64,000 bases of DNA. Source: Armatimonadota bacterium (lineage in GTDB: Bacteria; Armatimonadota; Zipacnadia; Zipacnadales; UBA11051). Under the pieces are notes generated by a model, which was not told where the DNA came from, did no database searches, and saw only the letters and a list, made by a program, of their open reading frames with translations. How positions within the stretch are numbered: the first letter of the stretch is position 1; each line of letters opens with the position of its first letter. Location: contig JABLXH010000002.1 of assembly GCA_013178155.1 (NCBI GenBank), forward strand, positions 116,523-180,522, given 5' to 3'. The position numbers and the translations under genes were made by a program. Below are positions 32,362-54,138 of the stretch, one piece after another.

Positions 32362-33192
32362 TCAGGCAGTGCGCCAGGGGACCGGCAGCGACACAGCCGG
32401 CGTGACTTTGGCCGCCGGGGCGGTCTTGAGATGGGCCCCCGCCAGGTTCCAGATGGTGTTGACGACGACGATTGCGGCGGCCAGGATGGCAGCGTAGATC
32501 ATCATGGAGCCCAGCGAGTTGGTGTCCTGATCCTTGGAAAGCTTGAACAGTATGCCCATGATGAGACCTAGCGGGGGACAGAAGAAGGCACCGATGACGA
32601 GGCCGATCATGGTGAAGACTGCTACGCCGACGACATTGGGCACCTGGCCCCGGGCCACGGCAGTGATGGCCGCCGAAACCGCCCACAGACGAAGCCCCTC
32701 GCCGATGAGGCAGAGAAAGGCCGCCAGCGCCAGCCCAGCACAGACGATGAACATGATGCGCGGGTCGGAGAACAGTCCGAAGCCGAGTGCCTTGAACTGG
32801 GCGTAGGTTAGCGTCTTGATGGTGGCAAAGCCACCTGCGCTGCCCAGGAAACCCTTGGCCGCTGCGGCGAGGCCGCCGGTGAAGGCCGCCGCAAGAATGG
32901 CTGCCACCACGATCGCCGGCCGTTGCTTCCGCAGCTCCTGGGCCTGCTGCTTGTCAAAGACGCGCAGACGCTTCTCCTCGGCGCTCTCACCCGGTGCAAC
33001 CAGGCCCGCAGCCGCCGGATTGGCCGCCGCGGCCGCTCCAGTGGCTGGCTTGGCCACCGTGCGAGCATTCTGTTGGGCCTGCTTGACGATATCCACCCGC
33101 GCCTGTACGAGATCGAGACCGCAGTCAAGACACTGGGTATCAGTCTGGCTGACCTTGGCCCCGCACTTGGGGCAGTTGCTCATGACACGCAT
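32362..33192 (-). CDS. Zinc-ribbon membrane protein (hypothetical)
   Basis: CPKCG ... CLDCG zinc ribbon followed by about four TM helices. Start set at ATG 33192 with GTGAGG RBS. Confidence 0.5.
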   Translation of the reverse strand: MRVMSNCPKCGAKVSQTDTQCLDCGLDLVQARVDIVKQAQQNARTVAKPATGAAAAANPAAAGLVAPGESAEEKRLRVFDKQQAQELRKQRPAIVVAAILAAAFTGGLAAAAKGFLGSAGGFATIKTLTYAQFKALGFGLFSDPRIMFIVCAGLALAAFLCLIGEGLRLWAVSAAITAVARGQVPNVVGVAVFTMIGLVIGAFFCPPLGLIMGILFKLSKDQDTNSLGSMMIYAAILAAAIVVVNTIWNLAGAHLKTAPAAKVTPAVSLPVPWRTA

Positions 33193-33377
33193 CGACACAG
33201 CCTCACAGGAAGAATGTCTCCCACGGGAGGCGATTATAGCAGACAGCGAAGGCGTGACCAACAGGGATTGTGGTGCCTTGCCGGCCAAGCCAGAAAAGCC
33301 CGGCGCCGAGGGAGGTCCAGAAGCGCTCGCCGGTGAACTGAAACTCTCAACACGCGGTCAGGAGGCCTCTCGGGGCA

Positions 33378-35375
33378 GTGGCAGAAGCTGAAGCCAGCAT
33401 CGATACCACCCACGAACAGGTAGTGTTGGGAGGCGGAGAGCGTCTGTCAGCTGCTACCGTCATTGTGGCGGTGGGTTTCCTGGGCCTGTCTCTGTTTTGG
33501 ATGCTGCAGGCAGGGATCATCTCGCACGGGGTACAGTTGGGCGAGAGCGTGCCGGTGGTGCCGGCGGTTGGGGCGCTGTTAGTCTTGACAGTGCTGGGCC
33601 TTACGCTCCGGCGGCTGGGCTGGCGCTGGCGCGTGCCACCGGGCCAGGTCCTTTACATCTACTGCTTCCTGTGCGTGGCGGTGACCATGAACTCGGTGGG
33701 CGTGGCGCGGATGCTGTTTCCTGAAGCCACGGCGGTCTACTATTTCGCCACGCCCGAGAACGACTTCGAGACACTGCAGAAGTACATGCCCACCTGGTTG
33801 GCCCCGCAGGATCCCAAGGTCATCCAGGAGATGTACGAGGGCGCTGCCGACGAGAAGGTGCCGTGGAAGCCCTGGCTGCGGCCCCTCTTCTTTTGGACCC
33901 TGTTTCTGGGCGGTCTGTTCGTGTCCATGCAGGGGATGACGGCACTCTTCCGACGGCAATGGGCGGACAAGGAGCGCCTGACCTTCCCTATCGTGCAGCT
34001 CGTCCTGGACATCGCCGACCAGGAGGGGCGACGGGTAGTGGGGGGCTTCTTTGGCAACCCGCTCATGTGGGTTGGGTTTGGCATAGCGGCTCTGTACAAC
34101 GTTGGTAACATCCTGAACGCCTGGAATCCGGCCGTGCCGGCCATGGGTCGGGAGTACGCTATCGGGCGGTTCTTCACCGAACGGCCGCTTTCGGCGATCA
34201 ACCCGCTCAGCATCGCCTGGCGACCCGAGAACATTGGACTGGGCTACCTGGTGCCGACGGAGATCACGCTGTCGGTGTGGGTGTTCTACCTGGCCCTGCG
34301 CATCTCCAACGTTATCGCGACGGCGGGCGGATACGAGATTGCCGGTTTCCCGTTTGATCGGGAGCAATCGGCGGGATCGTACCTGGTGTTGGCGCTCTTT
34401 CTGATCTGGGTGGCGCGGGACCATCTCAAGGCCGCCTTCGCAACCGCCTTCACCGCGCATCGGCCGCTTGATGACCGCGGCGAGCCCATGTCGTATCGAA
34501 TGGCCTTCCTGGCGACCTTCGGAGGGCTGGCGCTCATGCTGGCGATTGCCCTCAAGGCCGGGATGTGGCTGGGCACCGCACTCATCTACTTTGGTCTCGT
34601 GCTGCTCTTTGCGCTGGTGTACGCCAGGGCGCGGGCGGAAGCGGGCGCAGCCATGGTGTGGCTGTTTCCGTTCTACCTGCACAAACAGATGATGATCCAC
34701 GTGGCCGGGTCGGAGCCCTTCTCGCGGGGCGGTAACTGGAGCAACCTGACCATGCTCTCCACCTTCATGTTCATCTCCCGGGGCTTCTTCCAGTCCCTGA
34801 TGGCCTACCAGATGGAGAGCACCAAGATCGCGCAGGAGGCGCGGCTGCGACAGCGAACAATGGTCGTGTGGCTGCTGAGCGCGCTGGTGCTGGGGTTGTT
34901 GGGAGCCTATGTGACCCACTTGCACGCCTACTACACCCACGGGGCGAACATCCTGGAGGGGGGCAGCACCGAGGGTGGCTATCGGGTGATGCTGGCTCGC
35001 CAGGAGTTTGAGGAGCTCTCCAGCTTCCTGAAGGCCCAGCGCCCACCAGACCTGGCGCGCACGTGGGCGGGCCTCTTTGGCGCGGTCTTCACCCTGGGGC
35101 TGATACTGGTGCGCACGTACTCGCTGCGCTTTCCGCTTCACCCGCTGGGTTTCGCCATGGTTACCTCTTACGGCGGACCGCTGTGGGGGCCGTTCCTGCT
35201 GGTGTGGATCGTCAAGACCGTGGTGTTGCGGATCGGCGGGATGCGCGCCTACCGACGTGGCATTCCGTTTTTCCTGGGGATCGTGATGGGCCACTTCTTC
35301 GTGGCTGGTCTCATCTGGGGCTGGTTGAGTATCATCAATGAGATGTACCGTCGCTACGTCGTGCATTTCGGCTAG
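33378..35375 (+). CDS. Large polytopic membrane protein, unknown family (paralog A; about 13-14 TM)
   Basis: Shares WADKERLTFPIVQL, PTEITLSVWVFYL and PLHPLGFAMVTSY motifs with the 54230-56218 protein. Start uncertain. Confidence 0.6.
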   Translation: MAEAEASIDTTHEQVVLGGGERLSAATVIVAVGFLGLSLFWMLQAGIISHGVQLGESVPVVPAVGALLVLTVLGLTLRRLGWRWRVPPGQVLYIYCFLCVAVTMNSVGVARMLFPEATAVYYFATPENDFETLQKYMPTWLAPQDPKVIQEMYEGAADEKVPWKPWLRPLFFWTLFLGGLFVSMQGMTALFRRQWADKERLTFPIVQLVLDIADQEGRRVVGGFFGNPLMWVGFGIAALYNVGNILNAWNPAVPAMGREYAIGRFFTERPLSAINPLSIAWRPENIGLGYLVPTEITLSVWVFYLALRISNVIATAGGYEIAGFPFDREQSAGSYLVLALFLIWVARDHLKAAFATAFTAHRPLDDRGEPMSYRMAFLATFGGLALMLAIALKAGMWLGTALIYFGLVLLFALVYARARAEAGAAMVWLFPFYLHKQMMIHVAGSEPFSRGGNWSNLTMLSTFMFISRGFFQSLMAYQMESTKIAQEARLRQRTMVVWLLSALVLGLLGAYVTHLHAYYTHGANILEGGSTEGGYRVMLARQEFEELSSFLKAQRPPDLARTWAGLFGAVFTLGLILVRTYSLRFPLHPLGFAMVTSYGGPLWGPFLLVWIVKTVVLRIGGMRAYRRGIPFFLGIVMGHFFVAGLIWGWLSIINEMYRRYVVHFG

Positions 35376-35450: not shown

Positions 35451-38400
35451 ATGGCTGCACGCAACTGCTGGAAGTCAACCCTGGGGTGGAGCATGGCCTG
35501 TCTGGCGTTGGTCGGGGCCTTAGCCAGCCTGGCGCCGGCGGCGATGGATTATGAGGCCCTGGCCTCGCAGATTGATATGGGGCGCCTCGTGCGGGACCTG
35601 CGGGCCATGGAGGCCCTTGGATCGCGTGTAGTTGGATACCCGGGCAATGCACGCGCCGCTGCGATGATCCAGGAGGAGTTCGAGCGCCTCGGTCTGGAGA
35701 CGATGGTCCAGGAGTACGATCTGCCGTCGCCCGTGGATTACGGCAGCAAGCTGCGGTTGGGTGATCGCGAATACGATCTGTCGGCCCTCTGGCCCAACCA
35801 TGTCCGAACGTGCCAGGTCCCGGCCGCGGGTCTCACCGGCCCCGTCATTTACGTCGGCGCCGGTTCGCTGGCCGACTTTAACGGTAAGGACACGGCCGGG
35901 GCCATCGTACTGATGGACTTTAACACCCAACAGAACTGGCTGAACGTGCCCCTGCTGGACGCCGCAGCGGTGATCTTCGTTGAGCCCCTGAGCATGACCC
36001 GCGGCGAGGCGGAGATGAAGTTCGTCCGGGCGCCCATCAATGTCCCCCGGTTCTATCTCCGGGGCACCGATGCAGCGGAGGTGCTCGCCAAGGTGGCGGA
36101 GCAGCCCGTCACCGGCACCATCAGCGCCGACGAACCACTCCGCTGGCGCAGCACCGTCAACCGCAACATCATCGGTATTCTCCCTGGCAAGGGGGGAACG
36201 CTGAGGGAAGAGCCCATCGTCCTGCAGGCTTACTATGACTCGGTCTCGGTAGTGCCCAGGCTGGCGCCCGGAGCGGAGAACGCCACGGGTATCTGTGCGT
36301 TGTTGGAGCTGGCGCGGCTGCTCACTCGCCCGGAGTATCGGCCGCAGCGCACGGTCATCTTCCTGGCCACCAGTGGGCACTTCCAGGCGCTCGCCGGTAC
36401 GCGGGAGTTTCAGGCGCTTTGGGGACGGGAGCCCCGCAAGGAGCGCAATCGCCTGGACCAGCTCAGGAAGCTCGAAGAGGAGCTGGACGAGCTCAACAAG
36501 CTCAAGGAGAAGCTCACCAGGGACCTTGCCAAGCTCAGCGAGGCGCGGGCCCAGATCACCTCGGAGACGACGTTCTTTAAGAATGTCGTTAACGTTGGGC
36601 AACTGGAGTTGTCACCCGAGGTCGCGGAGCTTCGTCTGGCCCGCCTGGATCGGGACATCAAGCGCAAGCAAGACTATATCGCTATCTGGAAGAAGCTGGA
36701 CTCGCTGGGCAAGATCCAACTGTTCATCGGCCTGGACCTGAGCACCCGCAGCGGCGCTCTGGGCCCCTTCCAGTCGGGCTGGTACTACAACCAGTCCCAT
36801 CTGCTGCGGTTCTACTCGCCTCTGGGCAAGCAATTCGCCCAGTACGCTTCGGCGGCCGCCGAGGCCCTCGGGTACAACACGGCGGATGTGTTCGTAGATG
36901 GGATCAACCCGGTCAAGGGCCGCGAGTGGCACACCTTCTTCCCGGGCAAGGTGGCCTTTGACCACGAGATGATCATCAGGGGAGGGCGGCCGGGCATTGT
37001 TCTGGCTACCGTCAACGACGGGCGACCCCTGGTGGATACGCCGCTGGACACCGTAAGCAATCTCGACCTGGCCAATCTGGAGACCCAGGTGCGGATGCTG
37101 GCGTGTATGCTGACCAGCTTCCTGAGCGATGAGACGCTGGGAGACAAGGCGCTCAAGCGCATCCGGGCGCTGAAGAAGATGGACGACCTCAAGGACATCC
37201 TGGGCACCGTGCTGGAGTTCCGTCGCCGCGACAGCTTTGTGCCTAACACCCCGGTTCCCGGCTCGCTGGTGGTCATTCAGGGCAGCTATCGGATGATGAT
37301 GGGTGTGCACACCGAAGTGCTGGCCATGGCCAATGAGACCAGTGAGTTCCTGATGCGGGGCGAAGTCGGTGGGGGCAGTATCCTGGAGGCCTACAACTTT
37401 GACAATGGTACCGGGGACGTCATCTATGCCCCGGATATGGGTCCGGACGGCGACAAGAAGTACCCACGGACGGTCCAGGGGCGGGCCGGACTGAAGCGCC
37501 CCATCATCGTCTTCAACTGCGTCCCCACTGACATCTTCGACCTCGTGGATGAGCGGTATTTCCAGACCCTGCAGAAGGTCTTCATCTACGACGCCAAAGA
37601 CTACTCGGAGCCGATCTCCTTCGGCTACAGTCTGTCTTCCATGGGAGCGTCGGCCTCGGAGTTTCCATCGTTCGTCGAGCCAGTGGGGACGATCTTCTCG
37701 ATGCCCGAGGTGGATGTCCAGGTCACCATGTCCATGGGCCTGCTGGGTGTGCGCCTGGTGCTCATCAACTCAACCGATGACCGCCCCACGGGCGTGGGCT
37801 TCCCGGCGCGGACGACACGTCGGATCGCTCTCACCCCACTTCAGGTCGGGAAGGACATGTGGCAACTGGACGAGTTCCGCATGGCCAGACTGCGGGCACG
37901 GGGCATCCAGAACGCCCGGCTGGAGCGACTGCATACCGCTGCCGCAGAATCACTTAAGGTCGCGCAGGAGGAGTTGAAGGCCCGACGCTATGACCTGGGG
38001 GTCTCGGCGGCCCGCCACGCGTGGGGCTATGAGTCCCGGGCCTACCCGGATGTGCAGAAAACGGCGATTGACGTGGTGAAGGGTGTGCTGTTCTATCTGG
38101 CGATGCTGTTGCCCTTCGCCTACTTTGGCGAGCGCCTGCTGATCGCCTCGCGCACCATCGTCGGCACCATCCTGGGCACGCTGGGTGTCTTCCTGGTGGT
38201 GTTCTTCGGGTTGGCGATGGTGCACCCGGCCTTCACTCTCACCGCCAACCCCCCCATCATCCTGCTGGCATTCATCATCATGGCCTTGGCGGTGATGGTC
38301 ATCGCGATCGTCACCATGAAGTTCAACCAGGAGCTCAAGTCCATGAAGCAGGCGCGGGGTGGGGTGCACGAGGCGGATGTGGGACGGCTGTCCGCCGCTT

Positions 38401-40181
38401 CTGCGGCGTTCAGCCTGGGCATCGCCAACATGCGGCGGCGCAAGCTGCGCACCGCGCTGACGGCGACGACGCTGGTGCTTCTCACCTTCACGGTGCTGAG
38501 TTTCACCTCGGTCCGAGAGAGCCTGCGTACCAACGAGATACGCTTGCCCCACAAGCCTGGTTATCAGGGTGTCATGTTGCGCGACCGCGCCTGGCTGTCG
38601 CTGGAGGAGCCTACGGCCTACATTCTGAAGAACGAGTTGCACAAGGTCGGGACTGTCGCCACCCGGTCGTGGTACACCTCCGGCCAGATCGACAAGGAGG
38701 CGATGATAGACGTCACCAGCGCCGCTGACACCAGTAAGAAATACGTGGTGAGCTGCATCCTGGGGCTGACGCCGCAGGAAGAGGACGTGATGGACATCAA
38801 CCGGGCAGTGATGGCTGGGCGCTGGATCAAGCCGGGTGACAAGGATGTCTGCCTGCTGCCAGCCACGGTGGCCTCTGGCCTGGGTATCAGTGAGCAGCAG
38901 CTTGGGTCCGCGGAGGTCCTGGTCTTCGGTACGCGGTTCCGTGTCATCGGCATCGTCAGCGAGAATGCCATGCGCAAGATGCGGGACCTGGACGGCGAAC
39001 CAATGATGCCTGTGAACTACGCCCTGCTTCGGCCGGAGGTGCTCAAGGAGCTCCAGCGCCAGGCCGAGCAGCGGTCGCAGTTGGGACAGACCAATGCCCA
39101 GTCCTTGCTGCAGGAGTACAAGCATTTCGGCCCGGAGAAACTCATCATCCTGCCCTATGAGCAGACGCTGCAGTTGGGTGGTACATTGCGCTCGATCGCG
39201 GTCCGCTACGAGGACCCCGAGAAAGTGCTGCCCGACGTGCGACAGATGATGAACCGCTTTGCCCTCAGCCTCTATGCCGGATACAAGGACCAGACCCTGC
39301 TGTTCAGCTCCGTGGGGGTGACGTCCTTCTCTGGCCTGGAGGCGCTGGTCATCCCGATCCTCATCGCTGCCCTGATCGTGCTGAACACGATGCTGGGAGC
39401 GGTGCATGAGCGCGTGCGAGAGATCGGCATCTACAGTTCGCTTGGCCTGGCTCCGGTCCACGTCTCCATGCTCTTCCTGGCTGAGGCCTCGGTCTTTGCC
39501 AACCTCGGCGCCATCGTGGGCTACCTGCTGGGCCAGATCGTAACGAAGGTACTCTACGCCACCGGCAGCATGCATGGCATTGAGCTCAACTACAGCTCGA
39601 TGTCGGCGGTATCGGTGACGATCGTGGTTATTCTGGTGGTGTTGTTGTCCACGCTGTACCCATCCAAGAAGGCGGGGGAGATCGCCTCTCCGGGCATCGA
39701 GCGCAAGTGGTCGCTGCCGGAACCCGAGGGCGACCTGATGACGGTGGTGCTGCCCTTCACGGTGACCGGTCGCGATGCGTGGGGCGTGTCGGCGTTCCTG
39801 AAGGAGTTCTTCGACGAGTATGTGGGCTACGCGGGCGGGGAGTTCCTGGCCGAGGACGTCAAGCTGGAGCCGGTGGACTGCGAGCGCGGCAAGGGCATGC
39901 AGGTGTCGCTGCGCATGTGGCTGGCGCCCTACGACCTGGGCGTGAGCCAGGCGTTCCGCCTGACTTGTGAACCCACCGAGGACGGCGATATCTTCGCCAT
40001 CGTGATCCGTCTGGACCGCCTCGCCGGCGACATCACGTCCTGGAAGAAGACCAACACCCTCTTCCTGGCGGGCATTCGCAAGCAGTTCCTGATCTGGCGC
40101 ACGGTGCCGCAGGCTGAGAAGGTCGCCTACGCCGACCGAGCCGAGAAGATCCTGGCGGGTGAGGAGATCGAGGTGGCTTGA
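35451..40181 (+). CDS. Giant fusion protein: signal/anchor + PA-domain + M28-peptidase-like domain (degenerate metal/catalytic residues, coiled-coil insertion) + about 330-aa unknown domain + 3 TM + MacB/FtsX-type permease domain + about 160-aa C-terminal cytoplasmic domain
   Basis: AGGAGAG RBS. M28 N-terminal LRAMEALGSRVVGYPGN, PA-like DFNGKDTAGAIVLMDF, NRNIIGILPGKG...LQAYYDSV...GAENATG. Coiled coil RKLEEELDELNKLKEKL. FtsX TM1 ANMRRRKLRTALTATTLVLL and REIGIYSSLGLAPVHVSMLFLAEA. Confidence 0.75.
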   Translation: MAARNCWKSTLGWSMACLALVGALASLAPAAMDYEALASQIDMGRLVRDLRAMEALGSRVVGYPGNARAAAMIQEEFERLGLETMVQEYDLPSPVDYGSKLRLGDREYDLSALWPNHVRTCQVPAAGLTGPVIYVGAGSLADFNGKDTAGAIVLMDFNTQQNWLNVPLLDAAAVIFVEPLSMTRGEAEMKFVRAPINVPRFYLRGTDAAEVLAKVAEQPVTGTISADEPLRWRSTVNRNIIGILPGKGGTLREEPIVLQAYYDSVSVVPRLAPGAENATGICALLELARLLTRPEYRPQRTVIFLATSGHFQALAGTREFQALWGREPRKERNRLDQLRKLEEELDELNKLKEKLTRDLAKLSEARAQITSETTFFKNVVNVGQLELSPEVAELRLARLDRDIKRKQDYIAIWKKLDSLGKIQLFIGLDLSTRSGALGPFQSGWYYNQSHLLRFYSPLGKQFAQYASAAAEALGYNTADVFVDGINPVKGREWHTFFPGKVAFDHEMIIRGGRPGIVLATVNDGRPLVDTPLDTVSNLDLANLETQVRMLACMLTSFLSDETLGDKALKRIRALKKMDDLKDILGTVLEFRRRDSFVPNTPVPGSLVVIQGSYRMMMGVHTEVLAMANETSEFLMRGEVGGGSILEAYNFDNGTGDVIYAPDMGPDGDKKYPRTVQGRAGLKRPIIVFNCVPTDIFDLVDERYFQTLQKVFIYDAKDYSEPISFGYSLSSMGASASEFPSFVEPVGTIFSMPEVDVQVTMSMGLLGVRLVLINSTDDRPTGVGFPARTTRRIALTPLQVGKDMWQLDEFRMARLRARGIQNARLERLHTAAAESLKVAQEELKARRYDLGVSAARHAWGYESRAYPDVQKTAIDVVKGVLFYLAMLLPFAYFGERLLIASRTIVGTILGTLGVFLVVFFGLAMVHPAFTLTANPPIILLAFIIMALAVMVIAIVTMKFNQELKSMKQARGGVHEADVGRLSAASAAFSLGIANMRRRKLRTALTATTLVLLTFTVLSFTSVRESLRTNEIRLPHKPGYQGVMLRDRAWLSLEEPTAYILKNELHKVGTVATRSWYTSGQIDKEAMIDVTSAADTSKKYVVSCILGLTPQEEDVMDINRAVMAGRWIKPGDKDVCLLPATVASGLGISEQQLGSAEVLVFGTRFRVIGIVSENAMRKMRDLDGEPMMPVNYALLRPEVLKELQRQAEQRSQLGQTNAQSLLQEYKHFGPEKLIILPYEQTLQLGGTLRSIAVRYEDPEKVLPDVRQMMNRFALSLYAGYKDQTLLFSSVGVTSFSGLEALVIPILIAALIVLNTMLGAVHERVREIGIYSSLGLAPVHVSMLFLAEASVFANLGAIVGYLLGQIVTKVLYATGSMHGIELNYSSMSAVSVTIVVILVVLLSTLYPSKKAGEIASPGIERKWSLPEPEGDLMTVVLPFTVTGRDAWGVSAFLKEFFDEYVGYAGGEFLAEDVKLEPVDCERGKGMQVSLRMWLAPYDLGVSQAFRLTCEPTEDGDIFAIVIRLDRLAGDITSWKKTNTLFLAGIRKQFLIWRTVPQAEKVAYADRAEKILAGEEIEVA

Positions 40182-40209
40182 GGGCTCGGGCGCGGCACTG
40201 GAAGAAGCC

Positions 40210-42360: not shown

Positions 42361-43944
42361 TTGTCCAGCAAACTGGTGTCGGTGGAAGAGGCCGTGGCCC
42401 GCATCCCCAATGGCGCGACCGTCGGGGTGGGCGGGTTCGTCGGGGCGGGGCATCCGGAGGCGCTGACCGAGGGCATCGAACGGCGCTTCCTGGACGAGGG
42501 CCGCCCGCGCGACCTGACGGTCCTCTACGCCGCCGGACAGGGTGACGGTCAGGCGCGGGGCATCAACCACCTGGCGCACGAAGGGCTCGTGAAGCGGGTC
42601 ATCGGGGGCCACTGGGGGCTGTGTCCGGCCCTGGGACGGCTGGCGGTCGAGGGCAAGGTGGAGGCGTACAACTGGCCTCAGGGCGTCATCTGCCATCTGC
42701 TGCGCGACATCGCCGCCGGACGACCGGGAGCCATCACCCATATCGGCCTGAAGACCTACGTGGACCCGCGCCATGGCGGCGGGAAGCTCAATGAGCGGAC
42801 CACAGAGGACCTGGTGGAGATTGTGCACCTCGCGGGGCGTGAGTGGATGTTCTACCATGCCTTCCCCGTGCACGTGGCGCTGATCCGGGGGACCACGGCT
42901 GACGAGCGCGGCAACATTACCATGGAGCATGAGGCGCTCTTTGGCGACATGCTGGCGCTGGCACAGGCCGCACGCAATAGCGGGGGGATCGTGCTGGCCC
43001 AGGTCAAACGCATCGCCGCCGCGGGGAGTCTGCCTCCCCAGCAGGTGAGGGTGCCTGGCATCCTGGTGGATGCGGTGGTGGTGGCAGACGAAGAGCACCA
43101 CGGCCAGACCTTCGGCACCGCCTACAATCCGGCCTTCTCGGGCGCCATCCGGGTGCCGTTCGACAGTATCGAGTGGCTTCCCATGGACGAGAGAAAGGTG
43201 ATCGCACGGCGCGCGGCACTGGAACTGCGTCCAGGCGCGGTGATCAACCTGGGTATCGGCATGCCGGAGGGCATCGCCGCTGTAGCCAATGAGGAGGGCA
43301 TCGTCGGCAGCCTGACACAGACCGTGGAGGCCGGGCCGATCGGTGGCGTCCCCGCCAGCGGTCTGGACTTCGGCGCCGCCGCGAACCCCGAGGCCATCGT
43401 GGACCAGCCGGCGCAGTTTGACTTCTACGATGGCGGTGGCCTGGACCTGGCCTTCCTGGGCATGGCTCAGGCTGACGCGGCGGGCAATGTGAACGTCAGC
43501 AAGTTTGGCCCCAGGATCGCCGGCTGCGGTGGTTTCATCAACATCACTCAGACAGCGGCGAAGGTGGTCTTCTGTGGCACCTTCACCGCAGGCGGGCTGG
43601 AGGTAGCGGTGACCGACGGCCGCCTCCAGATCACCCAGGAGGGCAAGTACCACAAGTTCGTGCAGGCGGTCGAACACGTGACCTTCTCGGGTGAGTATGC
43701 CCGGGAGAAGGGCCAAAGCGTGCTCTATGTGACCGAGCGCGCGGTGTTTGAGCTGCGGGACGGGAGACTCTTGCTGACCGAGGTCGCTCCGGGGGTGGAC
43801 GTGGACGCCCAGGTGCTGGCCCAGATGGACTTCCGACCAGACGTTGCGCCCGATCTGCGTGACATGGACGCCCGCGTCTTCCGCGACATGCCGATGGGGC
43901 TGGGAGACGGGGATAGCAGGATAGGTGGGCCGTACCTCACATAG
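42361..43944 (+). CDS. Acyl-CoA:acetate/3-ketoacid CoA-transferase (fused alpha/beta subunits)
   Basis: TTG start per ORF track. [17 protein letters not shown]-terminal motif and an SENG-like [10 protein letters not shown] region. 527 aa, typical of the propionate CoA-transferase family. Confidence 0.75.
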
Positions 43945-44017
43945 GTCGGGCATCCGTGCGCGACAACACCACGACAGGCAAGATGCCTGTCCCACGCGCC
44001 AGAAAGGGGCCTTCGCC

Positions 44018-46525
44018 GTGAGGACCGTCTCGGCGGTCGCGCTGTGCCTGCTGCCATCGCTCGGCCTGGCGTATCACCCGGGGACCAACATCACGCGCGG
44101 CATCTACCTGAACCCGGCTCCCTTGATGAGCACCGGGCACTGGACGGCCTTCGGTGAGGGCTTCAGCTTCACCGAGGAGTCAGCGCACAGCGGACGAGCG
44201 AGCATCGAGTGCGTGCATCCAGGGCCGGGCGTCGAGGGGGTCGGAGCCGCGCAGGACGTGAAGGTCGGCCAGATCGCCCCTGCACCGCTGAGGATTTCAG
44301 GTTGGAGCAAGGCCGAAGGCGTCGTCGGTGCTGACAGGGCCTGGAATTACTCGGTCTACGCCGACGTGCGCTGCGCTGACGGCAGCAGTATCTACATGCA
44401 GATTGCCACTTTCAGCGGCGGTACCCACGACTGGGAATACGCCGAGACCGTCGTCGAGCCCAAGGCGCCGGTCACGACGGTCGCGCTCTACGTCTTCCTC
44501 CGTCAGGCCACGGGGAGGGTCTGGTTCGATGACATCTTCCTGGGGCCGGTGGACGGGCCAAACCTGGTGCGGAACCCCGGCTTTGAGCCCGAGGACCGGG
44601 TGGACGTGGCAGCCCGCGACGCCATGCTGCACACGCTGCAGGACCTGGGGGTCAACGCCCTGCACATCTACCTGTCCGGCAGTCCGGGTTACTGGCAGGG
44701 CAGCAACGGCCAGGGCAACGCCACCGTGTGGGACTTCCTGAAGCTCATGAGGGAGCGAGGGACCGGCGTGTGGGTTACGACCGGCGGGCCCGAGACGCCG
44801 GGCTTCGCCGACGCCGATGACCCCAACTTTCCGCAGTACGCCTGTGTCAATGGTCCGTGGGGAGAGGCCTGGGTCAAGACGCTGGGGCTGGCGGCGGCCT
44901 ATGACTTCGCGGGCATCTCGCTGGTGCCCGATGAGTACAACTGGCTCTACCACAGCCTGAGGGACGCCTACAGCAAGCACTCTGACCCCAGAGTGGCGGA
45001 GTTCTACCAGAAGCTGCCGGCGATGTGCGACTGTCCGGTCTGTCGGGAGCTCTACCGGACGAAGTTCGGCGCTGAGATGCCCACCCTGCCCCTCGACACC
45101 GTTTTTCCCCAGCAGAGCCAGGCGTACCGGGACTACCTCCGGCTGCGCTACGACAGCACCACGGAGTGGCTGCGACGGGGGGCACAGGCGGTGCATGGGG
45201 CCAATCCCCGCATCCGGGCGGACAGCCTCCTCTGTGTGTCGCCCATCTGTCACGATGACTGGTGGGGACCGGGCATCGCCTGGGACCGCCTGGGCGAGAC
45301 GGGCATTGACTTTCCGACAACCGACCCCTACATCCAGCTTCACAACTACCTCGGCGACAGCACCCACTGGTATGTGACCGAGACGGCCGCCCATCTGACA
45401 GCGGCGACACCGAAGCGACAGTGCGGGATTGTGCTGGAGGCCAGCCGGCTCTATCCGGAGTACCGCGAGATAGACCCGGTGGAGGCCTACGGGAGCGCGC
45501 TCAGCGCCGTATGCCACGGGGCGAAGGAGCTGGCCTGGTGGTACTACACCAACCTGACCGGAGAGAGTGGTGTTACCGGCCGCCCCGAGGTGTACTACGC
45601 CTGCCTCAAAGGGCTCTACGGCCTGCTCGCGCAGGCGGACACCTGGCTTGGGGGCCTGCACCCATACCAGCCGGTGGCATTGCTGTACTCGCGGGCCAGC
45701 GACGATTGGTGGCGGTTCTACTCGCAGCCGGAACCCACGGCCTTCCTGCAGCCACCGGTCAGAGATGCGCGCCATGCCAACGTGGCGCAGAAGGAAGTGC
45801 TTTACTACCTCTTCCGCCGCGGAGTGCCGACTGCCCTGCACTACCTGGAGAGTGTGACCGCAGAGCAGTTACGCGGCTACCAGGCCATCGTGGTGCCCTT
45901 CCCATTGGCGATCAGCGACCAGCAGGCGGCCCTGCTGCAGCAGTTGGCGAGGAGTGGCAAGCGGACCGTTGTCGTCTCGCAGAACGGCCCACTGGATGAC
46001 TTTGGCGCCTTGCGCGAGCGGCCGGCGCTGTCCGGCATGGTCCAGGGCGCAGAGGGGCCGAACGGGCGGCGGTTCGGCCGGGGCCGCGTGTGGTTTCTGC
46101 GGGATGACTTCGGCTATCGGCTGGTTGCCCACGGCGACAACCAGAAGCGCACGCGAGCGGAGCGTATCCAGCCCGACCCCATCGCGGCAGAGCCAGCCGC
46201 CGCTTTCGACCGCATCCTGCGTGCCGCCTGCGGGCATGAGCCCTGGGTGCTGGAGCAGTTGCCCTCCGCCGACCTGGAAGCGACGGCGCTGACCAATGCC
46301 CAGGGCGATCTGGTGGTGCTGACGACGAACTGGACCGATACCCCACAGCGCTGCCGGATCCGGCTGCCGCGGGTGGGCGGCTCCACGCTGTACGGCTTCC
46401 GCCTGGGACCGCGGGGACACTGGGCGCGCGACAGCGTGGGTCTGGAACTCAGGGCCGAGGAATACGTGGGGGACGTGGACCTGGGGCCGCAGGAGGCCTG
46501 TCTGTGGCGCATGCCAGTGCGCTGA
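44018..46525 (+). CDS. Secreted glycoside-hydrolase-like protein (CBM-like N-terminus, TIM-barrel, GH42-type trimerisation-like C-terminal region)
   Basis: GTG 44018 with AGAAAGGGG RBS gives signal peptide VRTVSAVALCLLPSLGLA. C-terminal GYQAIVVPFPLAISDQQAALLQQLARSGKRTVVVS resembles the GH42 trimerisation module. Confidence 0.5.
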   Translation: MRTVSAVALCLLPSLGLAYHPGTNITRGIYLNPAPLMSTGHWTAFGEGFSFTEESAHSGRASIECVHPGPGVEGVGAAQDVKVGQIAPAPLRISGWSKAEGVVGADRAWNYSVYADVRCADGSSIYMQIATFSGGTHDWEYAETVVEPKAPVTTVALYVFLRQATGRVWFDDIFLGPVDGPNLVRNPGFEPEDRVDVAARDAMLHTLQDLGVNALHIYLSGSPGYWQGSNGQGNATVWDFLKLMRERGTGVWVTTGGPETPGFADADDPNFPQYACVNGPWGEAWVKTLGLAAAYDFAGISLVPDEYNWLYHSLRDAYSKHSDPRVAEFYQKLPAMCDCPVCRELYRTKFGAEMPTLPLDTVFPQQSQAYRDYLRLRYDSTTEWLRRGAQAVHGANPRIRADSLLCVSPICHDDWWGPGIAWDRLGETGIDFPTTDPYIQLHNYLGDSTHWYVTETAAHLTAATPKRQCGIVLEASRLYPEYREIDPVEAYGSALSAVCHGAKELAWWYYTNLTGESGVTGRPEVYYACLKGLYGLLAQADTWLGGLHPYQPVALLYSRASDDWWRFYSQPEPTAFLQPPVRDARHANVAQKEVLYYLFRRGVPTALHYLESVTAEQLRGYQAIVVPFPLAISDQQAALLQQLARSGKRTVVVSQNGPLDDFGALRERPALSGMVQGAEGPNGRRFGRGRVWFLRDDFGYRLVAHGDNQKRTRAERIQPDPIAAEPAAAFDRILRAACGHEPWVLEQLPSADLEATALTNAQGDLVVLTTNWTDTPQRCRIRLPRVGGSTLYGFRLGPRGHWARDSVGLELRAEEYVGDVDLGPQEACLWRMPVR

Positions 46526-46550
46526 GCCTGACTACCCTGGAGGCAAGGAC

Positions 46551-47828
46551 ATGACTGTGACGCCTGACCTGCGCGACGCCAACGCCGTGGCGAGGGCCGT
46601 CGGCCTACCGGAGGCACCCGAGATATGGCGGCGGACGTGGCCGCAGTCGGCCGATTCCTTCGGCGCGGGCGAGGTGTTCTTTCTGACAGAAGACTGGGTG
46701 CCGAGAGCCTGCGAGGCCCTCCGCGTCAGCCAGGAAGTCACCACTGCTCTCCAGGACTGCGCGGCGGCGGTGCGGGAGAGCCCCGCAATGCAGCGCCTGG
46801 CATGGCACCTGCACTGGTTGCTGTGCCTGTCGGGCCTGTCGCCCGAGGTGAGTGCCTGGCCGCGTCTCTCCGATGACCACCCGGCAGGGCCCATGCTCTA
46901 TGGGCTCGTCGTGCTTTCCGGCTGGCCGCACCTGCGGGAAATCCACGCCGCACGCGGGTTGGACCTGGAGATCACTCTGGACACCATGTCCGACCTCGAC
47001 ACCTGGACCCGCGACTGGCACGCCTGGGAGGGTGGCTACCGCTTCACCGCGCTCGGCTGGATGCAGCACCACCTTCGCGGCCAACTGCTGCAACTCGGTC
47101 GGCTGCAGTACCTGCCGGGCTCCTACCACCACGCCTTTCGCTGGTACCGACATACCTCTACCGGCCGGGTCATCGCTCTGGCTGAGGATGGCCTGCTCTT
47201 CCGCGAGGATGGGCAGTTCGCCAGTGCTGACGGCAGCTCGGTCCGTCGAGGTCTCTGGCGGTCGAGCTTTACGGAGACGGTCAGCCGCGTAACGGGCCAG
47301 CCGGTCACGCCCGAGGGGAAAGTGTTGCCGGAGGCAGTGACCCTGGACACGGCAGAATGGTGTGAGGTGCTGCGGCGTGGTGACCCGGTGATGACGGTGC
47401 ACATACCGTCGCGGGGCCGGATGGACCCGGCCTCGTGTGGTGAGTCCTTCGCCCGCGCGGTGGCCGTGTACCGGGAGCACTACCCGGATGTTCCCTATCG
47501 CGCCTTTACCTGCCAGTCGTGGCTGTTGGACCCTCAGTTCGAGCAACTGGACCCCGCGCCACCCAACATCTGCGCGTTCATGCAGGAGTGGTACCTACAC
47601 CCGGTTGAGCGCGCGGCGGAGGAGCAGACCTGGGAGCGGGTCTTTGACCTGTTCGGCCACAGCCAGCCCGACTGGGAAAACGCTCCCCAGGACACGAGCC
47701 TTCGGCGGGCGCTTGTCGCTTTCGCGCGGCAGGGCGGCCACATGCGCGGTGGCGGTGGAGTCATCTTTCCAAAGGACGTGGGCGACTGGGGCCGTCAGGG
47801 GTACCGAGCCCGCGGCGGCGTCGCGTAG
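46551..47828 (+). CDS. GNAT-like acyltransferase family protein (NAT_N/GNAT_C-type, DUF5596-like)
   Basis: C-terminal VHIPSRGRMDPASCGESF...AFTCQSWLLDPQ resembles the GNAT_C signature (HIP...C.SWLLDP). By-eye call. Confidence 0.4.
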   Translation: MTVTPDLRDANAVARAVGLPEAPEIWRRTWPQSADSFGAGEVFFLTEDWVPRACEALRVSQEVTTALQDCAAAVRESPAMQRLAWHLHWLLCLSGLSPEVSAWPRLSDDHPAGPMLYGLVVLSGWPHLREIHAARGLDLEITLDTMSDLDTWTRDWHAWEGGYRFTALGWMQHHLRGQLLQLGRLQYLPGSYHHAFRWYRHTSTGRVIALAEDGLLFREDGQFASADGSSVRRGLWRSSFTETVSRVTGQPVTPEGKVLPEAVTLDTAEWCEVLRRGDPVMTVHIPSRGRMDPASCGESFARAVAVYREHYPDVPYRAFTCQSWLLDPQFEQLDPAPPNICAFMQEWYLHPVERAAEEQTWERVFDLFGHSQPDWENAPQDTSLRRALVAFARQGGHMRGGGGVIFPKDVGDWGRQGYRARGGVA

Positions 47829-47858
47829 CTCTCCTGTGGTCGCCAAAGGAAGCACCAA

Positions 47859-53500: not shown

Positions 53501-54138
53501 CCCAACACCTGCCGGAGCTGCGGTCGGCCTATGAGGGCACCTTCTTCCTTGACGCGGACGTGGGCTTTGTCACGGAGCGCACTACTCTGGAGAACGGCCT
53601 TGCGGGCAGGAAACTGCTGATTGTGCCCGCGGCCTCGCACGTGCCACCGCCGGTCGTAGCGGCTGTCCGCCAGTGGGTGGAGGCCGGGGGCACCCTGTGG
53701 CTGGTCGGTGATTGCCTGACGCATGACACGGCCAACCAGCCGCTGGCGGCCCTCACTGACCTGGAGCCGGCCCGGCTCGAGGGCGAGACCATCCAACGTG
53801 CAGACCTGGGCCAGGGGCTGGTGGTGCAGACCGTGGACCGGCGTGATACGGGCGTGTACCGGCGCCTGGGCGAGGCGATGTTTGGCAAGGCAGGAGTGAC
53901 CCGTGCCCTGCGAGTGGTTGGTGCGGCCGGCGAGCCGGTGGATGGGGTGGAGTTCCGAACGGCGACGCACGACGGCAGCGTCCTGGCGTATGCGCTCAAC
54001 ATGAACAAGGCGCCGGTGACGCTGATGGTCAGCGGCGCCGAAGGTGGCATCCGGGACTTGCGCACGGGGACAAGGCGGACGTGGCCGCTGACCCTGGCGC
54101 CACTGGAGCTTGTCTTTGGGGTGCTGGACAAGCGGTGA
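50587..54138 (+). CDS. Secreted CBM9-like + GH42-like beta-galactosidase-family protein (1183 aa)
   Basis: Start moved to ATG 50587 (signal MRALGAVLWTLALAGAWGAAPAA). CBM9-like block (YDCVQMAFDAAHD...YEVRIPW). GH42-like core and trimerisation motif LLIVPAASHVPPPVVAAVRQWVEAGGTLWLVGD. Confidence 0.6.
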   Translation: MRALGAVLWTLALAGAWGAAPAAEVLTYKLLGTPDPAATGGEAKRLDAEGIYCWWDGPALKPGYFEVVARARTVGAAGVLQFVLCQSGKDAPPLYPVSRTQRGEVTTPEYAEIYCGTFYWDGSYTPRVSDWSSGGLMVDWVKLVPVPLAAIRDPDPGQIKRVLAPRFPTPPAIDGELSEWAQVPALALGPGVARGSRYGGSSDLTALCRWAWDDRALYFAAQVQDDHATFLPDPRELGDLWQYDCVQMAFDAAHDARTPGYDDDDYEYGFGQTASGPRAYRWVTGNNLVLGDVPTVTVGVERDEGRAITTYEVRIPWTELLPFSPTTRSCGMTVVVDDNDGEAAQESWLEWTPGITGPKDPSAFGLLTLIDEPPAATEVIAWLAGESDQSDREQSRFVLNVNSPRPLGPVTVEWVLRADDRELTRAQRAAELNAAADQVPLELDLSAIGQGRFTLRAALLRGAETVATAELPFARYAIADLQQRLERLRARQEQLWQRCEAWRAQGGHGWYPRATLGVVFEFVRNTADDLDKRLCERAEAVMADLERMLDEAESELNALQAGQATDWPMSPMVRERLTVREGGFWEGDQPVFLIGFCGWWQVWTECRRLADYGMNHAEESIVAPFALLPAPDGDPPQAMLEANEWAWERGDEKGFRYSRMVACNQLPASFREKYPEAGGGGWGGVSTLQPAVRDFERRYLSIITGAAAKYVSPGVYVLYGENTHTLSRHPLEVAAFQTWLQERYGSIAALNAAWGTAYPDFTAVGNGEDASGPVAWYDRGIFNQKLFTDWSAWLVRTAKENDPQALCTGYPSLLSWDDSSDFSAGIDMEALCRVFDVNGFDTAALDYGGKQWAMNSITGFAMPQELLRAFNPDHPNYDPELHMVNLKQLYPPEYIRAAMWQGFLHGLSASSLWVYQRSEGIDSMLTFQPRVMEEYLRTGLDLRRLVAPVRAFQRAREEVAILYSLTSIAYNAQHLPELRSAYEGTFFLDADVGFVTERTTLENGLAGRKLLIVPAASHVPPPVVAAVRQWVEAGGTLWLVGDCLTHDTANQPLAALTDLEPARLEGETIQRADLGQGLVVQTVDRRDTGVYRRLGEAMFGKAGVTRALRVVGAAGEPVDGVEFRTATHDGSVLAYALNMNKAPVTLMVSGAEGGIRDLRTGTRRTWPLTLAPLELVFGVLDKR

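What the first reader, a model, noticed from the sequence alone, without database searches (positions are those of the whole stretch)
33378..35375. Paralogous 665/702-aa polytopic membrane proteins of unrecognised family, each encoded next to a giant exported protein
The proteins at 33378-35375 and 54230-56218 share several blocks: W(A/V)(D/E)(K/Q)ER(L/M)(T/S)FPIVQL (nt 33961-34000 and 54841-54880), RFF..RP, PTE(I/L)(T/S)LS(V/L)W(V/F)FYL and PLHP(L/A)GFA(M/L).T(S/T)Y, with a similar about 13-14 TM layout. One is 75 bp upstream of the 1576-aa M28/FtsX fusion. The other overlaps the stop of the 1183-aa CBM9/GH42-like exported protein and precedes an amidohydrolase. I cannot assign them to a named transporter or GT-C family from sequence. 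The conserved acidic/Arg motif in the first large loop hints at a GT-C-like glycosyltransferase (PMT/ArnT/YfhO-like) or an export function dedicated to large secreted proteins.
Basis: partly seen in the sequence, partly recalled or inferred. Interest (0 to 1): 0.65.

Follow-up and report, generated by a model that had tools for sequence, protein, structure and literature searches.

The report
Divergent OPT-fold transporters of Armatimonadota
The two membrane proteins are real paralogs of an uncharacterised, Armatimonadota-wide family (Pfam DUF6785+DUF6784) that has the fold of the plant Yellow-Stripe/OPT solute transporters, not of a glycosyltransferase, and one of them is a conserved partner of a giant MacB/FtsX-like membrane protein.

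Summary
The ORFs at 33378-35375 (665 aa) and 54230-56218 (662 aa, not 702) are paralogs: 29% identity over 613 aa, E=5e-63.

The sequence link to OPT is faint: 1 of 70 family members passes the Pfam OPT threshold.

Paralog 1 sits directly upstream of the 1576-aa protein in all 17 distinct genome-derived loci that hold a giant. In the reciprocal search, 22 of 24 informative metagenomic loci show the same pairing. That giant is a polytopic MacB/FtsX-like protein with a non-canonical M28-like ectodomain, not a secreted protein.

More distant giants instead carry a different OPT-family gene downstream, plus an ABC ATPase and a small FtsX gene upstream.

Paralog 2's CBM9 neighbour is conserved only in a 92% ortholog.

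Best reading: these are secondary solute transporters, probably importers. Paralog 1 probably works with the MacB-like machine. Substrates are unknown.

The parts
33378..35375 (+). Paralog 1, 665 aa. Pfam DUF6785 (residues 27-522) plus DUF6784 (566-657). Its fold is that of a YS1/OPT elevator-type transporter. It belongs to the clade that is always followed by the giant MacB-like gene.
33960..34001 (+). Family-wide motif W195-A-D-K-E199-R-L-T-F-P204-I-V-Q-L. W, E and P are invariant in 70 diverse members. It lies at the end of the long helix 163-198, flanked by Arg/Lys, so it is probably on the cytoplasmic side.
   Evidence: Invariant columns. Helices. A similar ERLPFP motif occurs in the X668 OPT-like family.
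34626..34646 (+). Motif R417-A-R-A-E421-A-G at the end of helix 398-422. R and E are invariant. It is a candidate proton- or substrate-binding site in the C-terminal half of the core domain; this is inference only.
   Evidence: The analogy is to the Asp446/490/494 region of HvYS1 (PMC9691689). It has not been mapped residue by residue.
35133..35150 (+). Motif P586-L-H588-P-L-G in the DUF6784 part. H and P are invariant family-wide.
35451..40181 (+). Conserved partner of paralog 1: a 1576-aa polytopic protein. In order it has a signal anchor (10-28), a PA-like plus M28-like ectodomain with a non-canonical site, a coiled coil, a conserved unknown region, 3 TM segments (872-954), a MacB-like unit (TM 1003-1021, MacB_PCD, FtsX TMs 1293-1402), and a 170-aa cytoplasmic C-terminal domain.
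   Evidence: Synteny.
32362..33288 (-). Divergently transcribed protein with a Zn-ribbon and about 4 TM segments (308 aa). It is conserved upstream of the pair. Its Zn-ribbon is homologous to the N-terminal Zn-ribbon of the ABC ATPase found in the sister (type B) loci.
   Evidence: Neighbour cluster (8 loci; 9 loci). hhalign probability 94.6%, E=6.6e-8.
54230..56218 (+). Paralog 2, 662 aa from GTG 54230. DUF6785 plus DUF6784, with the same YS1/OPT fold. It sits in a remote clade of the family.
50587..54138 (+). Upstream neighbour of paralog 2: a secreted 1183-aa protein with a signal peptide, a CBM9 domain and weak GH42/GH14-like hits.
42361..50582 (+). Co-directional genes upstream in the paralog 2 cluster: a 527-aa unknown, an 866-aa unknown, a NAT_N/GNAT_C acyltransferase-like gene (46551-47828), and a 907-aa beta-helix (pectate-lyase-like)/CBM4_9 protein (47859-50582).
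   Evidence: The same order occurs in L005/L006.
56294..57121 (+). Downstream neighbour of paralog 2: an Amidohydro_2 family protein, 275 aa.

Best explanation
Both genes encode members of a large, Armatimonadota-expanded family (Pfam DUF6785 plus DUF6784, which together form one protein fold). The family is a very divergent branch of the OPT/YSL transporter superfamily (TC 2.A.67). The proteins are about 16-helix secondary transporters built like barley YS1, with a substrate-binding core domain that moves against a scaffold domain (the elevator mechanism).

By analogy with every characterised OPT member, they most likely perform proton-coupled uptake of an oligomeric organic solute: a peptide, a glycopeptide or an oligosaccharide-like compound. 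The family-wide invariant Arg, Glu, Arg and His residues (R192, E199, R417/E421 and H588 in paralog 1) are the candidate coupling or binding residues.

Paralog 1 is the dedicated partner of the adjacent 1576-aa protein. That protein is the membrane and periplasmic component of a MacB/FtsX-type (type VII ABC-like) machine with a PA/M28-like ectodomain. MacB-type proteins act on substrates at the outer face of the membrane and have no transmembrane pathway of their own. The OPT-fold partner would therefore supply the transmembrane step. I favour import of what the ectodomain captures or processes.

Paralog 2 is a stand-alone member in a seven-gene co-directional cluster with secreted glycan-active enzymes. 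It probably imports a product of that cluster.

Shown: paralogy, family membership, fold, the conserved and reciprocal gene pairing, and the domain content of the giant. Inferred: transport activity, direction, proton coupling, physical or functional coupling to the giant, and substrates.
For: Fold:
- AF2 models have pLDDT 86.4 and 88.4.
- Foldseek gives probability 1.00, E=3.5e-8, with all other hits at TM about 0.1.
- HvYS1 is an OPT-family, proton-driven, elevator-type symporter (PMC9691689).

Sequence:
- Family member P0230 passes Pfam OPT (27.1 bits against a 25.8 cutoff; residues 392-646 against profile positions 361-612).

Size and topology:
- About 16 helices and about 660 aa, matching prokaryotic OPTs, which have 16-17 TMS and 524-690 aa (PMC3061005).

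Family breadth:
- 6419 clusters at 50% identity.
- Several paralogs occur per MAG. They sit in varied catabolic contexts: GNAT, GFO/IDH/MocA, DUF4838, heparinase-like, alginate lyase, GH-like. This is the pattern expected of nutrient transporters.

Pairing:
- The giant lies immediately downstream on the same strand in all 17 distinct genome-derived loci that hold a giant, counting the window. These range from Armatimonadia to Fimbriimonadaceae.
- In the reciprocal test, 22 of 24 informative metagenomic giants at 53% identity or more have DUF6785 directly upstream.
- No terminator-like site lies in the 75-nt gap.

Independent support:
- Giants at 36-49% identity carry a different 668-aa OPT-family protein ('X668') immediately downstream in 38 loci.
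- X668 member L141 hits Pfam OPT at E=1.6e-10.
- NCBI names X668 proteins 'peptide transporter' or 'OPT/YSL family transporter'.
- So the giant family is coupled to an OPT-fold protein in two different gene arrangements.
Against: - No transport assay exists for any member.
- The two window proteins themselves do not hit Pfam OPT even at E<=1. Only 1 of 70 members does. Profiles find no YS1 sequence in the PDB. Homology therefore rests mainly on predicted structure.
- No internal repeat was detectable.
- Neighbourhoods of other paralogs are heterogeneous. Some are biosynthetic or envelope contexts, such as a GT4-GT2-GT4 cluster and LpxD/BamA, which would fit export equally well.
- The M28-like domain lacks the canonical catalytic residues. 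The simple 'peptidase feeds peptide importer' picture is weak.
- No ABC ATPase lies within 10 kb of the pair in any of the 17 distinct genome-derived loci or in the window. How the MacB-like unit is energised in this lineage is unknown.
- Paralog 2's context is conserved only in a near-identical relative.
Confidence: 0.7

Rival explanations
1. The OPT-fold protein works as an exporter, or as a non-importing subunit, that hands a cytoplasmic product (a small peptide, a glycolipid head group or an envelope precursor) to the periplasmic domains of the MacB-like giant. The giant then expels or installs it in the envelope. This would resemble the way MacAB-TolC or LolCDE act on periplasmic-face substrates.
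For: - MacB-type machines need another route across the inner membrane for their substrates (established knowledge of MacB, LolCDE and FtsEX).
- The pair lies in a conserved housekeeping or envelope-like block with a GT4 glycosyltransferase and a Zn-ribbon membrane protein.
- Another family member sits beside a GT4-GT2-GT4 cluster and LpxD/OmpH/BamA genes.
- The giant is more conserved (61-68% identity) than typical catabolic genes.
Against: - All characterised OPT members are importers (PMC3061005).
- Many other paralogs sit among catabolic enzymes.
- No outer-membrane or adaptor (MFP/TolC-like) genes were seen next to the pair.
Confidence: 0.2
2. Classic peptide scavenging: the M28 domain of the giant is an active extracellular aminopeptidase, and paralog 1 imports the released peptides.
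For: - Pfam Peptidase_M28 hit, E=1e-11.
- Best PDB sequence matches are PA-domain aminopeptidases 2ek8 and 6hc6.
- OPT proteins transport oligopeptides (PMC3061005).
- The Fervidibacter sacchari paper reads its OPT transporter and M28 peptidases as peptide catabolism (PMC11535203).
Against: - Positions aligned to the AAP ligands and catalytic base are substituted: His97 to Tyr, Asp117 to Glu, Glu151 to His, Glu152 to Phe.
- These substitutions are conserved across about 70 giants of both arrangements.
- The inactive M28 homolog nicalin is also among the hits.
- Only profile positions 1-78 of 193 match.
- An aminopeptidase would release single amino acids, not oligopeptides.
Confidence: 0.12
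3. One reading: a GT-C-like glycosyltransferase (PMT/ArnT/YfhO-like), or a dedicated secretion factor for the neighbouring giant proteins.
For: - The proteins are polytopic and of similar size to GT-C enzymes.
- They carry a conserved acidic/Arg motif.
- They lie next to large proteins.
Against: - The motif is flanked by Arg/Lys on the predicted cytoplasmic side.
- The CBM9 protein has its own Sec signal peptide.
- Giant adjacency for paralog 2 is not conserved.
- Adjacent genes of 1000 aa or more are enriched (17.8% against 5.5%) almost solely because of the MacB-like partner.
Confidence: 0.02

Closest known systems
Barley Yellow Stripe 1 (HvYS1; PDB 7WSR/7WST), YSL branch of the OPT superfamily
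   Same: - Length is similar (600 against 662-665 aa).
- Both have many helices, including short, re-entrant or horizontal ones, consistent with core plus scaffold domains and an elevator mechanism (PMC9691689).
   Different: - Sequence identity is only 9-12%.
- No sequence-level hit to YS1.
- The origin is bacterial (Armatimonadota).
- The substrate is surely not iron-phytosiderophore.
- YS1's Cys250-Cys671 disulfide, its dimer beta-strand and its Asp446/490/494 triad could not be checked residue by residue.
Prokaryotic OPT family proteins (TC 2.A.67, Pfam PF03169), including the 'X668' OPT/YSL-like proteins of Fervidibacter and other Armatimonadota
   Same: - Size is about 650-690 aa with about 16 TMS.
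- They lie next to the same giant M28-like/MacB-like gene family.
- Motifs are shared and co-linear (ERL-x-FP; AR-x-x-G...PF).
- The X668 HMM gives weak, co-linear matches: 27 of 503 proteins at 12 bits or more, against 0 reversed decoys.
   Different: - The Pfam OPT model misses 69 of 70 DUF6785 proteins.
- hhalign of X668 against DUF6785 scores no better than shuffled controls.
- Gene order differs: DUF6785 is upstream of the giant, X668 is downstream.
- X668 loci carry an ABC ATPase and a small FtsX gene; DUF6785 loci do not.
MacB / LolCE / FtsX type VII ABC transporter permeases (for the partner protein)
   Same: The partner has the N-in TM1, periplasmic core domain (MacB_PCD) and three further TMs (FtsX domain) arrangement. 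In sister loci, an ABC ATPase and a second FtsX-only subunit are encoded alongside.
   Different: - About 1000 extra N-terminal residues: PA/M28-like ectodomain, coiled coil and 3 extra TMs.
- An extra 170-aa C-terminal domain.
- No ATPase within 10 kb in this lineage.
- An obligatory OPT-fold neighbour, which to my knowledge has not been described for MacB, Lol or FtsEX systems. No paper mentioning DUF6785 or DUF6784 was found.
Non-catalytic M28 homologs such as nicalin or transferrin receptor (for the ectodomain of the partner)
   Same: M28 fold signature with a PA-like insertion, and loss of canonical co-catalytic zinc residues. Nicalin is among the sequence hits.
   Different: The replacement residues (Tyr, Glu, His) are themselves strictly conserved across the family. 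A modified active or binding site cannot be excluded.

Membership tests
Pfam DUF6785 + DUF6784 (uncharacterised) | Match to both HMMs above the gathering thresholds | tested here: met
   Paralog 1 scores 409.9 and 76.3 bits. Paralog 2 scores 420.6 and 93.8 bits. The cutoffs are 25 and 26.4.
OPT/YSL superfamily (TC 2.A.67) | Three-dimensional fold of the only solved member (HvYS1): core plus scaffold domains | tested here: met
   [not shown]
OPT/YSL superfamily (TC 2.A.67) | Match to Pfam OPT (PF03169) above the gathering score | tested here: not met
   Neither window protein hits at E<=1. Only 1 of 70 family members does (P0230, 27.1 bits against 25.8).
OPT/YSL superfamily (TC 2.A.67) | About 16 (17) transmembrane segments; prokaryotic members 524-690 aa | tested here: met
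   About 16 long helices in both models, which are 665 and 662 aa. Reference values come from PMC3061005.
OPT/YSL superfamily (TC 2.A.67) | Internal sequence repeats (2 to 4 to 8 to 16 TMS duplications) | tested here: inconclusive
   hhalign of the N-half against the C-half of the family alignment gave no signal (probability 0.2%). The divergence may simply be too great.
OPT/YSL superfamily (TC 2.A.67) | Cation (H+)-coupled uptake of oligopeptides, glutathione or metal chelates | not testable with these tools
   Needs transport assays.
GT-C glycosyltransferases (PMT, ArnT, PglB/AglB, YfhO) | GT-C fold, with the catalytic acidic motif in the first extracytoplasmic loop | tested here: not met
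   [not shown]
MOP flippases / MFS transporters | Characteristic folds | tested here: not met
   [not shown]
MacB/FtsX type VII ABC permease (partner protein 35451-40181) | FtsX TM domain plus periplasmic core domain | tested here: met
   FtsX E=1e-14. MacB_PCD E=8e-6 at 26.7 bits, just under its cutoff of 27. Precomputed MacB_PCD hits in the orthologs are marked weak.
MacB/FtsX type VII ABC permease (partner protein 35451-40181) | Cognate ABC ATPase (fused or encoded alongside) | tested here: not met
   None was found in the window ORFs tested or within 10 kb in the 17 distinct genome-derived loci that hold a giant. One is present directly upstream of the distant giants (Zn-ribbon plus ABC_tran). 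An ATPase encoded elsewhere in the genome cannot be excluded.
Peptidase family M28 (ectodomain of the partner) | Co-catalytic zinc ligands and catalytic Glu (His97, Asp117, Glu151/152 of AAP) | tested here: not met
   They are aligned to Tyr, Glu, His and Phe. These substitutions are conserved in about 70 homologs.

The most novel reading that the evidence does not exclude
An OPT-fold secondary transporter and a giant MacB/FtsX-like protein with a remodelled M28/PA ectodomain form one conserved two-part membrane machine across Armatimonadota. Sister lineages add a Zn-ribbon ABC ATPase and a small FtsX subunit.

The machine would couple extracytoplasmic capture or processing, driven by mechanotransmission, to elevator-type translocation. 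One possible job is recycling of glycopeptide or muropeptide-like fragments. In the ATPase-less lineage represented here, the OPT-fold partner, and so the proton-motive force, might have taken over part of the energising role.
Probability: 0.2. Interest if true: 0.8.

Novelty: new variant of a known kind. Interest (0 to 1): 0.5.

Why it matters
- The work assigns a fold and a probable activity class to a Pfam DUF pair. That pair covers about 6400 sequence clusters at 50% identity and several genes per genome in Armatimonadota, a phylum noted for polysaccharide degradation (PMC11535203).
- Bacterial OPT-family transporters had not been characterised biochemically as of the 2011 review (PMC3061005). 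Only one OPT-superfamily structure, from a plant, turned up in the PDB searches.
- The reciprocal, two-arrangement linkage between OPT-fold proteins and a MacB-like giant is a concrete, testable prediction of a new functional partnership for type VII ABC-like machinery. It can be tested by AF-multimer modelling, co-purification, and the cultivated Fervidibacter sacchari.
- It also shows that Pfam's split into DUF6785 and DUF6784 describes one continuous transporter fold.

Tried and rejected
- NCBIfam gave no hit for either protein.
- The literature has no paper containing DUF6785, DUF6784, PF20581 or PF20580.
- Sequence profiles A1 and A2, and P0230, searched against PDB sequences gave no YS1 hit, only a chance SDH hit at E=1.
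- The afdb50 fold library was unavailable.
- An internal-repeat search by hhalign found nothing.
- hhalign of X668 against DUF6785 scored 21.9, equal to the block-shuffled null of 21.4 +/- 3.2. I therefore do not claim HH-level homology, despite a 432-column co-linear alignment.
- hhalign of the Zn-ribbon/4-TM protein against the small FtsX subunit showed no relation.
- The ORF at 42184-43995(-) ('hyp602'), and others such as 33579-35438(-), are shadow ORFs of + strand genes.
- The general claim that family members sit next to giant proteins was tested. The enrichment (17.8% against 5.5% of neighbours at 1000 aa or more) comes almost entirely from the one MacB-like partner.
- The GT-C, MOP, MFS and protein-export readings were rejected on fold.
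Full report
**1. Observation**

The window has about 65% GC. It comes from an Armatimonadetes MAG: protein P0001 is 100% identical to the first ORF and is named HPY69_00825.

ORF 33378-35375(+) encodes 665 aa. The second ORF is open from TTG 54110. GTG 54230 has a GGAG 8 nt upstream, and orthologs are 653-662 aa with full coverage from that start. Paralog 2 is therefore 662 aa and does not overlap the stop of the upstream gene at 54138.

BLASTP between the two gives 29% identity over 613 aa, E=5e-63. They coincide with columns that are invariant in alignments of 39, 70 and 44 family members.

**2. Family**

Both proteins match Pfam DUF6785 (E about 1e-122) and the C-terminal DUF6784 (E=1e-21 and 1e-27). 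There is no NCBIfam model and no paper mentioning either DUF.

A family profile finds 6419 clusters at 50% identity with E<=1e-3, and 2174 with E<=1e-30, among 1.84 billion representatives. Every hit that carries an organism-level name is Armatimonadota or a MAG labelled candidate division WS1; a few are named only 'bacterium'. The named groups include Armatimonadia, Zipacnadales, Chthonomonadales and Fimbriimonadaceae. Single MAGs carry several paralogs, for example four loci each from CAYSRY and DPJP.

**3. Fold**

AlphaFold2 models built from family alignments are confident: paralog 1 has pLDDT 86.4 and pTM 0.88; paralog 2 has pLDDT 88.4 and pTM 0.89.

HvYS1 is an OPT-family, proton-driven symporter. 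It has a substrate-binding core and a scaffold domain and is proposed to work as an elevator. Its authors found no structural homologs in 2022 (PMC9691689).

Both models have about 16 long helices, as expected for OPT proteins. Prokaryotic OPT members have 16-17 TMS and 524-690 aa (PMC3061005). The Pfam split into DUF6785 and DUF6784 is therefore one continuous transporter fold.

**4. Limits of the homology claim**

At the sequence level the link is faint.
- The window proteins do not hit Pfam OPT even at E<=1.
- One of 70 diverse members does: P0230, at 27.1 bits against a cutoff of 25.8, with residues 392-646 on profile positions 361-612.
- Family profiles do not retrieve YS1 from PDB sequences.
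- No internal repeat is detectable.

I therefore file the family as a divergent branch that shares the OPT/YSL fold. It is not a member of Pfam OPT.

**5. Rejection of the GT-C and export readings**

The conserved W-x3-E-R-x-x-F-P motif follows the long helix 163-198. It sits in a stretch with six Arg/Lys (RRQWADKER...GRR). The preceding 104-162 segment is net acidic. By the positive-inside rule the motif is cytoplasmic, unlike the outer-loop catalytic acids of GT-C enzymes. This is my inference.

The CBM9 neighbour has its own signal peptide, MRALGAVLWTLALAGAWGAAPAAEV, from ATG 50587. The 1576-aa neighbour is an integral membrane protein.

**6. The 1576-aa neighbour**

From N- to C-terminus it has:
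- A hydrophobic segment at 10-28.
- A PA-like plus M28-like region. Pfam M28 gives E=1e-11 but covers only profile positions 1-78 of 193. The best PDB sequence hits are the aminopeptidases 2ek8 and 6hc6, and the inactive homolog nicalin also appears.
- A coiled-coil-like insertion.
- A conserved unknown region.
- Three TM segments at 872-954.
- A MacB-like unit: TM 1003-1021, MacB_PCD (E=8e-6), and the FtsX TMs at 1293-1402 (E=1e-14).
- A conserved 170-aa C-terminal domain.

Positions aligned to the AAP zinc ligands and catalytic base are Tyr, Glu, His and Phe. These substitutions (AYYDS, PGAE[N/S/Q], [S/G][G/A]H[F/C]) are conserved in about 70 homologs. This looks like a remodelled site rather than a decayed one. 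The canonical peptidase site is absent.

**7. Linkage of paralog 1 and the giant**

Annotated contexts of orthologs at 57-58% identity show the order Rho - hypothetical - GT4 - (divergent Zn-ribbon membrane protein) - DUF6785 - M28/MacB_PCD/FtsX giant - ... - AIRC. In L001 the DUF6785 gene is duplicated in tandem.

Counting the window, 17 distinct genome-derived loci hold a giant: L001, L002, L010-L019, L021, L027, L038 and L063, with L003 and L020 as duplicates of L002. In all of them the giant lies immediately downstream on the same strand as the DUF6785 gene. The giants are 61-68% identical over about 1560 aa in most of these loci. They are 50-57% identical in L027 and 44% in the Fimbriimonadaceae locus L038. 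Every locus whose DUF6785 is at least 57% identical to paralog 1, and which has downstream DNA, is in this set.

These genes form one clade in an NJ tree. A sister clade at about 54% identity lacks the giant.

For the reciprocal test, I searched metagenomes with the giant and got 79 loci. Of 24 giants at 53% identity or more with informative upstream DNA, 22 have DUF6785 directly upstream. The exceptions are L077 and L084. No terminator-like site lies in the 75-nt gap in the window.

**8. A second, independent pairing**

Giants at 36-49% identity lack DUF6785. They have a conserved operon instead:
- an FtsX-only protein of 247 aa;
- a Zn-ribbon plus ABC_tran ATPase of 301 aa;
- the giant;
- a 668-aa polytopic protein ('X668'), immediately downstream in 38 loci.

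X668 has no Pfam family in 31 of 32 members. Member L141:10692-12704 hits Pfam OPT at E=1.6e-10 (40.7 bits; residues 165-453 on profile positions 105-414). NCBI names X668 proteins 'peptide transporter' or 'OPT/YSL family transporter'. Their sources are Armatimonadota, including the cultivated Fervidibacter sacchari (WP_018195293.1).

X668 and DUF6785 share co-linear motifs: ERLPFP against ERLTFP, and Y-x-DARM-x-GLTG...IPF against YARARAEAG...FPF. An X668 HMM gives weak but co-linear hits to 27 of 503 DUF6785 proteins. The maximum is 19.1 bits, and the best hits are in the paralog 1 clade. Reversed decoys give 0 such hits and block-shuffled decoys give 1. However, hhalign scores no better than shuffled controls, so direct homology between the two families remains unproven.

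The Zn-ribbon of the divergent upstream gene in the window (32362-33288) is homologous to the ATPase's N-terminal Zn-ribbon (hhalign probability 94.6%, E=6.6e-8). This ties the two arrangements together.

No ABC ATPase lies within 10 kb of the pair in any of the 17 distinct loci or in the window ORFs tested.

**9. Paralog 2**

Paralog 2 closes a seven-gene co-directional cluster:
- a 527-aa unknown and an 866-aa unknown;
- a NAT_N/GNAT_C gene;
- a 907-aa beta-helix/CBM4_9 protein;
- the secreted 1183-aa CBM9 protein;
- paralog 2 itself;
- an Amidohydro_2 gene.

The cluster is identical in a 92% ortholog. A 71% ortholog follows ABC_tran - FtsX (1137 aa) - hypothetical - PQQ-like genes. A 58% ortholog is divergent from a 1294-aa alpha-amylase-family protein. 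The CBM9 linkage is therefore not conserved.

Other paralog groups have their own recurrent neighbours:
- aminotransferase-like, GNAT and radical SAM;
- GFO/IDH/MocA and GNAT;
- DUF4838 and heparinase II/III-like;
- URO-D, alginate lyase and GH-like;
- a GT4-GT2-GT4 cluster next to LpxD/BamA genes.

Across all loci, neighbours of 1000 aa or more are enriched (17.8% against 5.5%). Almost all of this comes from the MacB-like partner.

**10. Mechanism**

Shown: the fold, the family and the pairing.

Inferred: the proteins are elevator-type secondary transporters. Because all characterised OPT members are H+-coupled importers (PMC3061005), they are probably importers of oligomeric solutes. Precedents in the superfamily include peptides, glutathione and metal chelates. 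Peptidoglycan fragments are transported by C. albicans Opt4, according to the abstract of PMC12284242 seen. From genome context, beta-xylan oligosaccharides have also been proposed (PMC3061005).

MacB-type proteins transmit conformational change to periplasmic domains. They do not themselves carry substrates across the inner membrane; this is established knowledge of MacB, LolCDE and FtsEX. An OPT-fold partner is a logical provider of the transmembrane step.

I favour import of what the ectodomain captures or processes. Export towards the machine is the main rival. A simple aminopeptidase-plus-peptide-importer model is weakened by the missing catalytic residues.

**11. Novelty and verdict**

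The family is catalogued but uncharacterised. Its assignment to the OPT/YSL fold, its phylum-wide expansion, and its conserved reciprocal partnership with a MacB-like giant appear undescribed in the searchable literature. The partnership also appears in a second arrangement, with a different OPT-family gene plus an ABC ATPase.

It is a new variant of a known kind of transporter, not a categorically new system. Interest is moderate at 0.5. The substrate and the meaning of the partnership remain open.

Noticed in passing
L089-L147 (for example L147:10731-12734, L141:10692-12704): 'X668' is a 650-690-aa polytopic family always found downstream of the distant giants. Thirty-one of 32 members have no Pfam hit, yet NCBI names them 'peptide transporter' or 'OPT/YSL family transporter'. 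One member hits Pfam OPT at E=1.6e-10. This is a gap in Pfam coverage of the OPT superfamily.
   Followed up: partly
window 32362-33288 (-): The divergent upstream gene encodes a Zn-ribbon plus about 4 TM segments. Its Zn-ribbon is homologous to the N-terminal Zn-ribbon fused to the ABC ATPase in the sister operons (hhalign probability 94.6%). The ribbon is kept in this lineage, but the ATPase is not encoded nearby.
   Followed up: partly
window 36210-36420 (residues about 254-323 of the 1576-aa protein): The M28-like motifs AYYDS, PGAEN and SGHF replace the canonical HxDS, GADD and EE. They are conserved in about 70 homologs, which suggests a remodelled rather than decayed metal or active site.
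   Followed up: partly
L001 10001-14088; L017 7846-11935: Two tandem copies of the paralog 1-type DUF6785 gene lie upstream of the giant in two MAGs.
   Followed up: no
L130: One metagenomic giant is flanked by both a DUF6785 gene (upstream, P0230-like) and an X668 gene (downstream).
   Followed up: no
L004/L029 4944-9673: Six tandem N_methyl/SBP_bac_10 (DUF1559-like, prepilin-type) genes lie divergent from a DUF6785 paralog. The same kind of gene recurs downstream of the type B operons (L102:7325-8089).
   Followed up: no
window 1-25000: This part of the window is rich in glycan-related genes: two DegT aminotransferases, two GT9 heptosyltransferase-like genes, GH123 (5511-7250, -), a 1023-aa GH106-like rhamnosidase (18058-21129), a second Amidohydro_2 gene, a PilS-like histidine kinase/response regulator hybrid, and a YkuD L,D-transpeptidase with a Cu_amine_oxidN1 domain.
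   Followed up: no
window 42361-46525: Two proteins with no Pfam match head the paralog 2 cluster: an 866-aa protein (43925-46525), scanned, and a 527-aa protein (42361-43944), whose ortholog has no precomputed Pfam hit. Both are conserved in L005/L006.
   Followed up: no
window 33579-35438 (-), 37950-40211 (-), 42184-43995 (-): Long antisense shadow ORFs (603-753 aa) lie opposite real genes. They are typical of 65% GC DNA and are not genes, judged by GC3 frame analysis and synteny.
   Followed up: yes
window 59979-63417: A riboflavin biosynthesis operon (RibD, lumazine-binding riboflavin synthase, RibBA, probable lumazine synthase) lies downstream. It is syntenic with L005.
   Followed up: no
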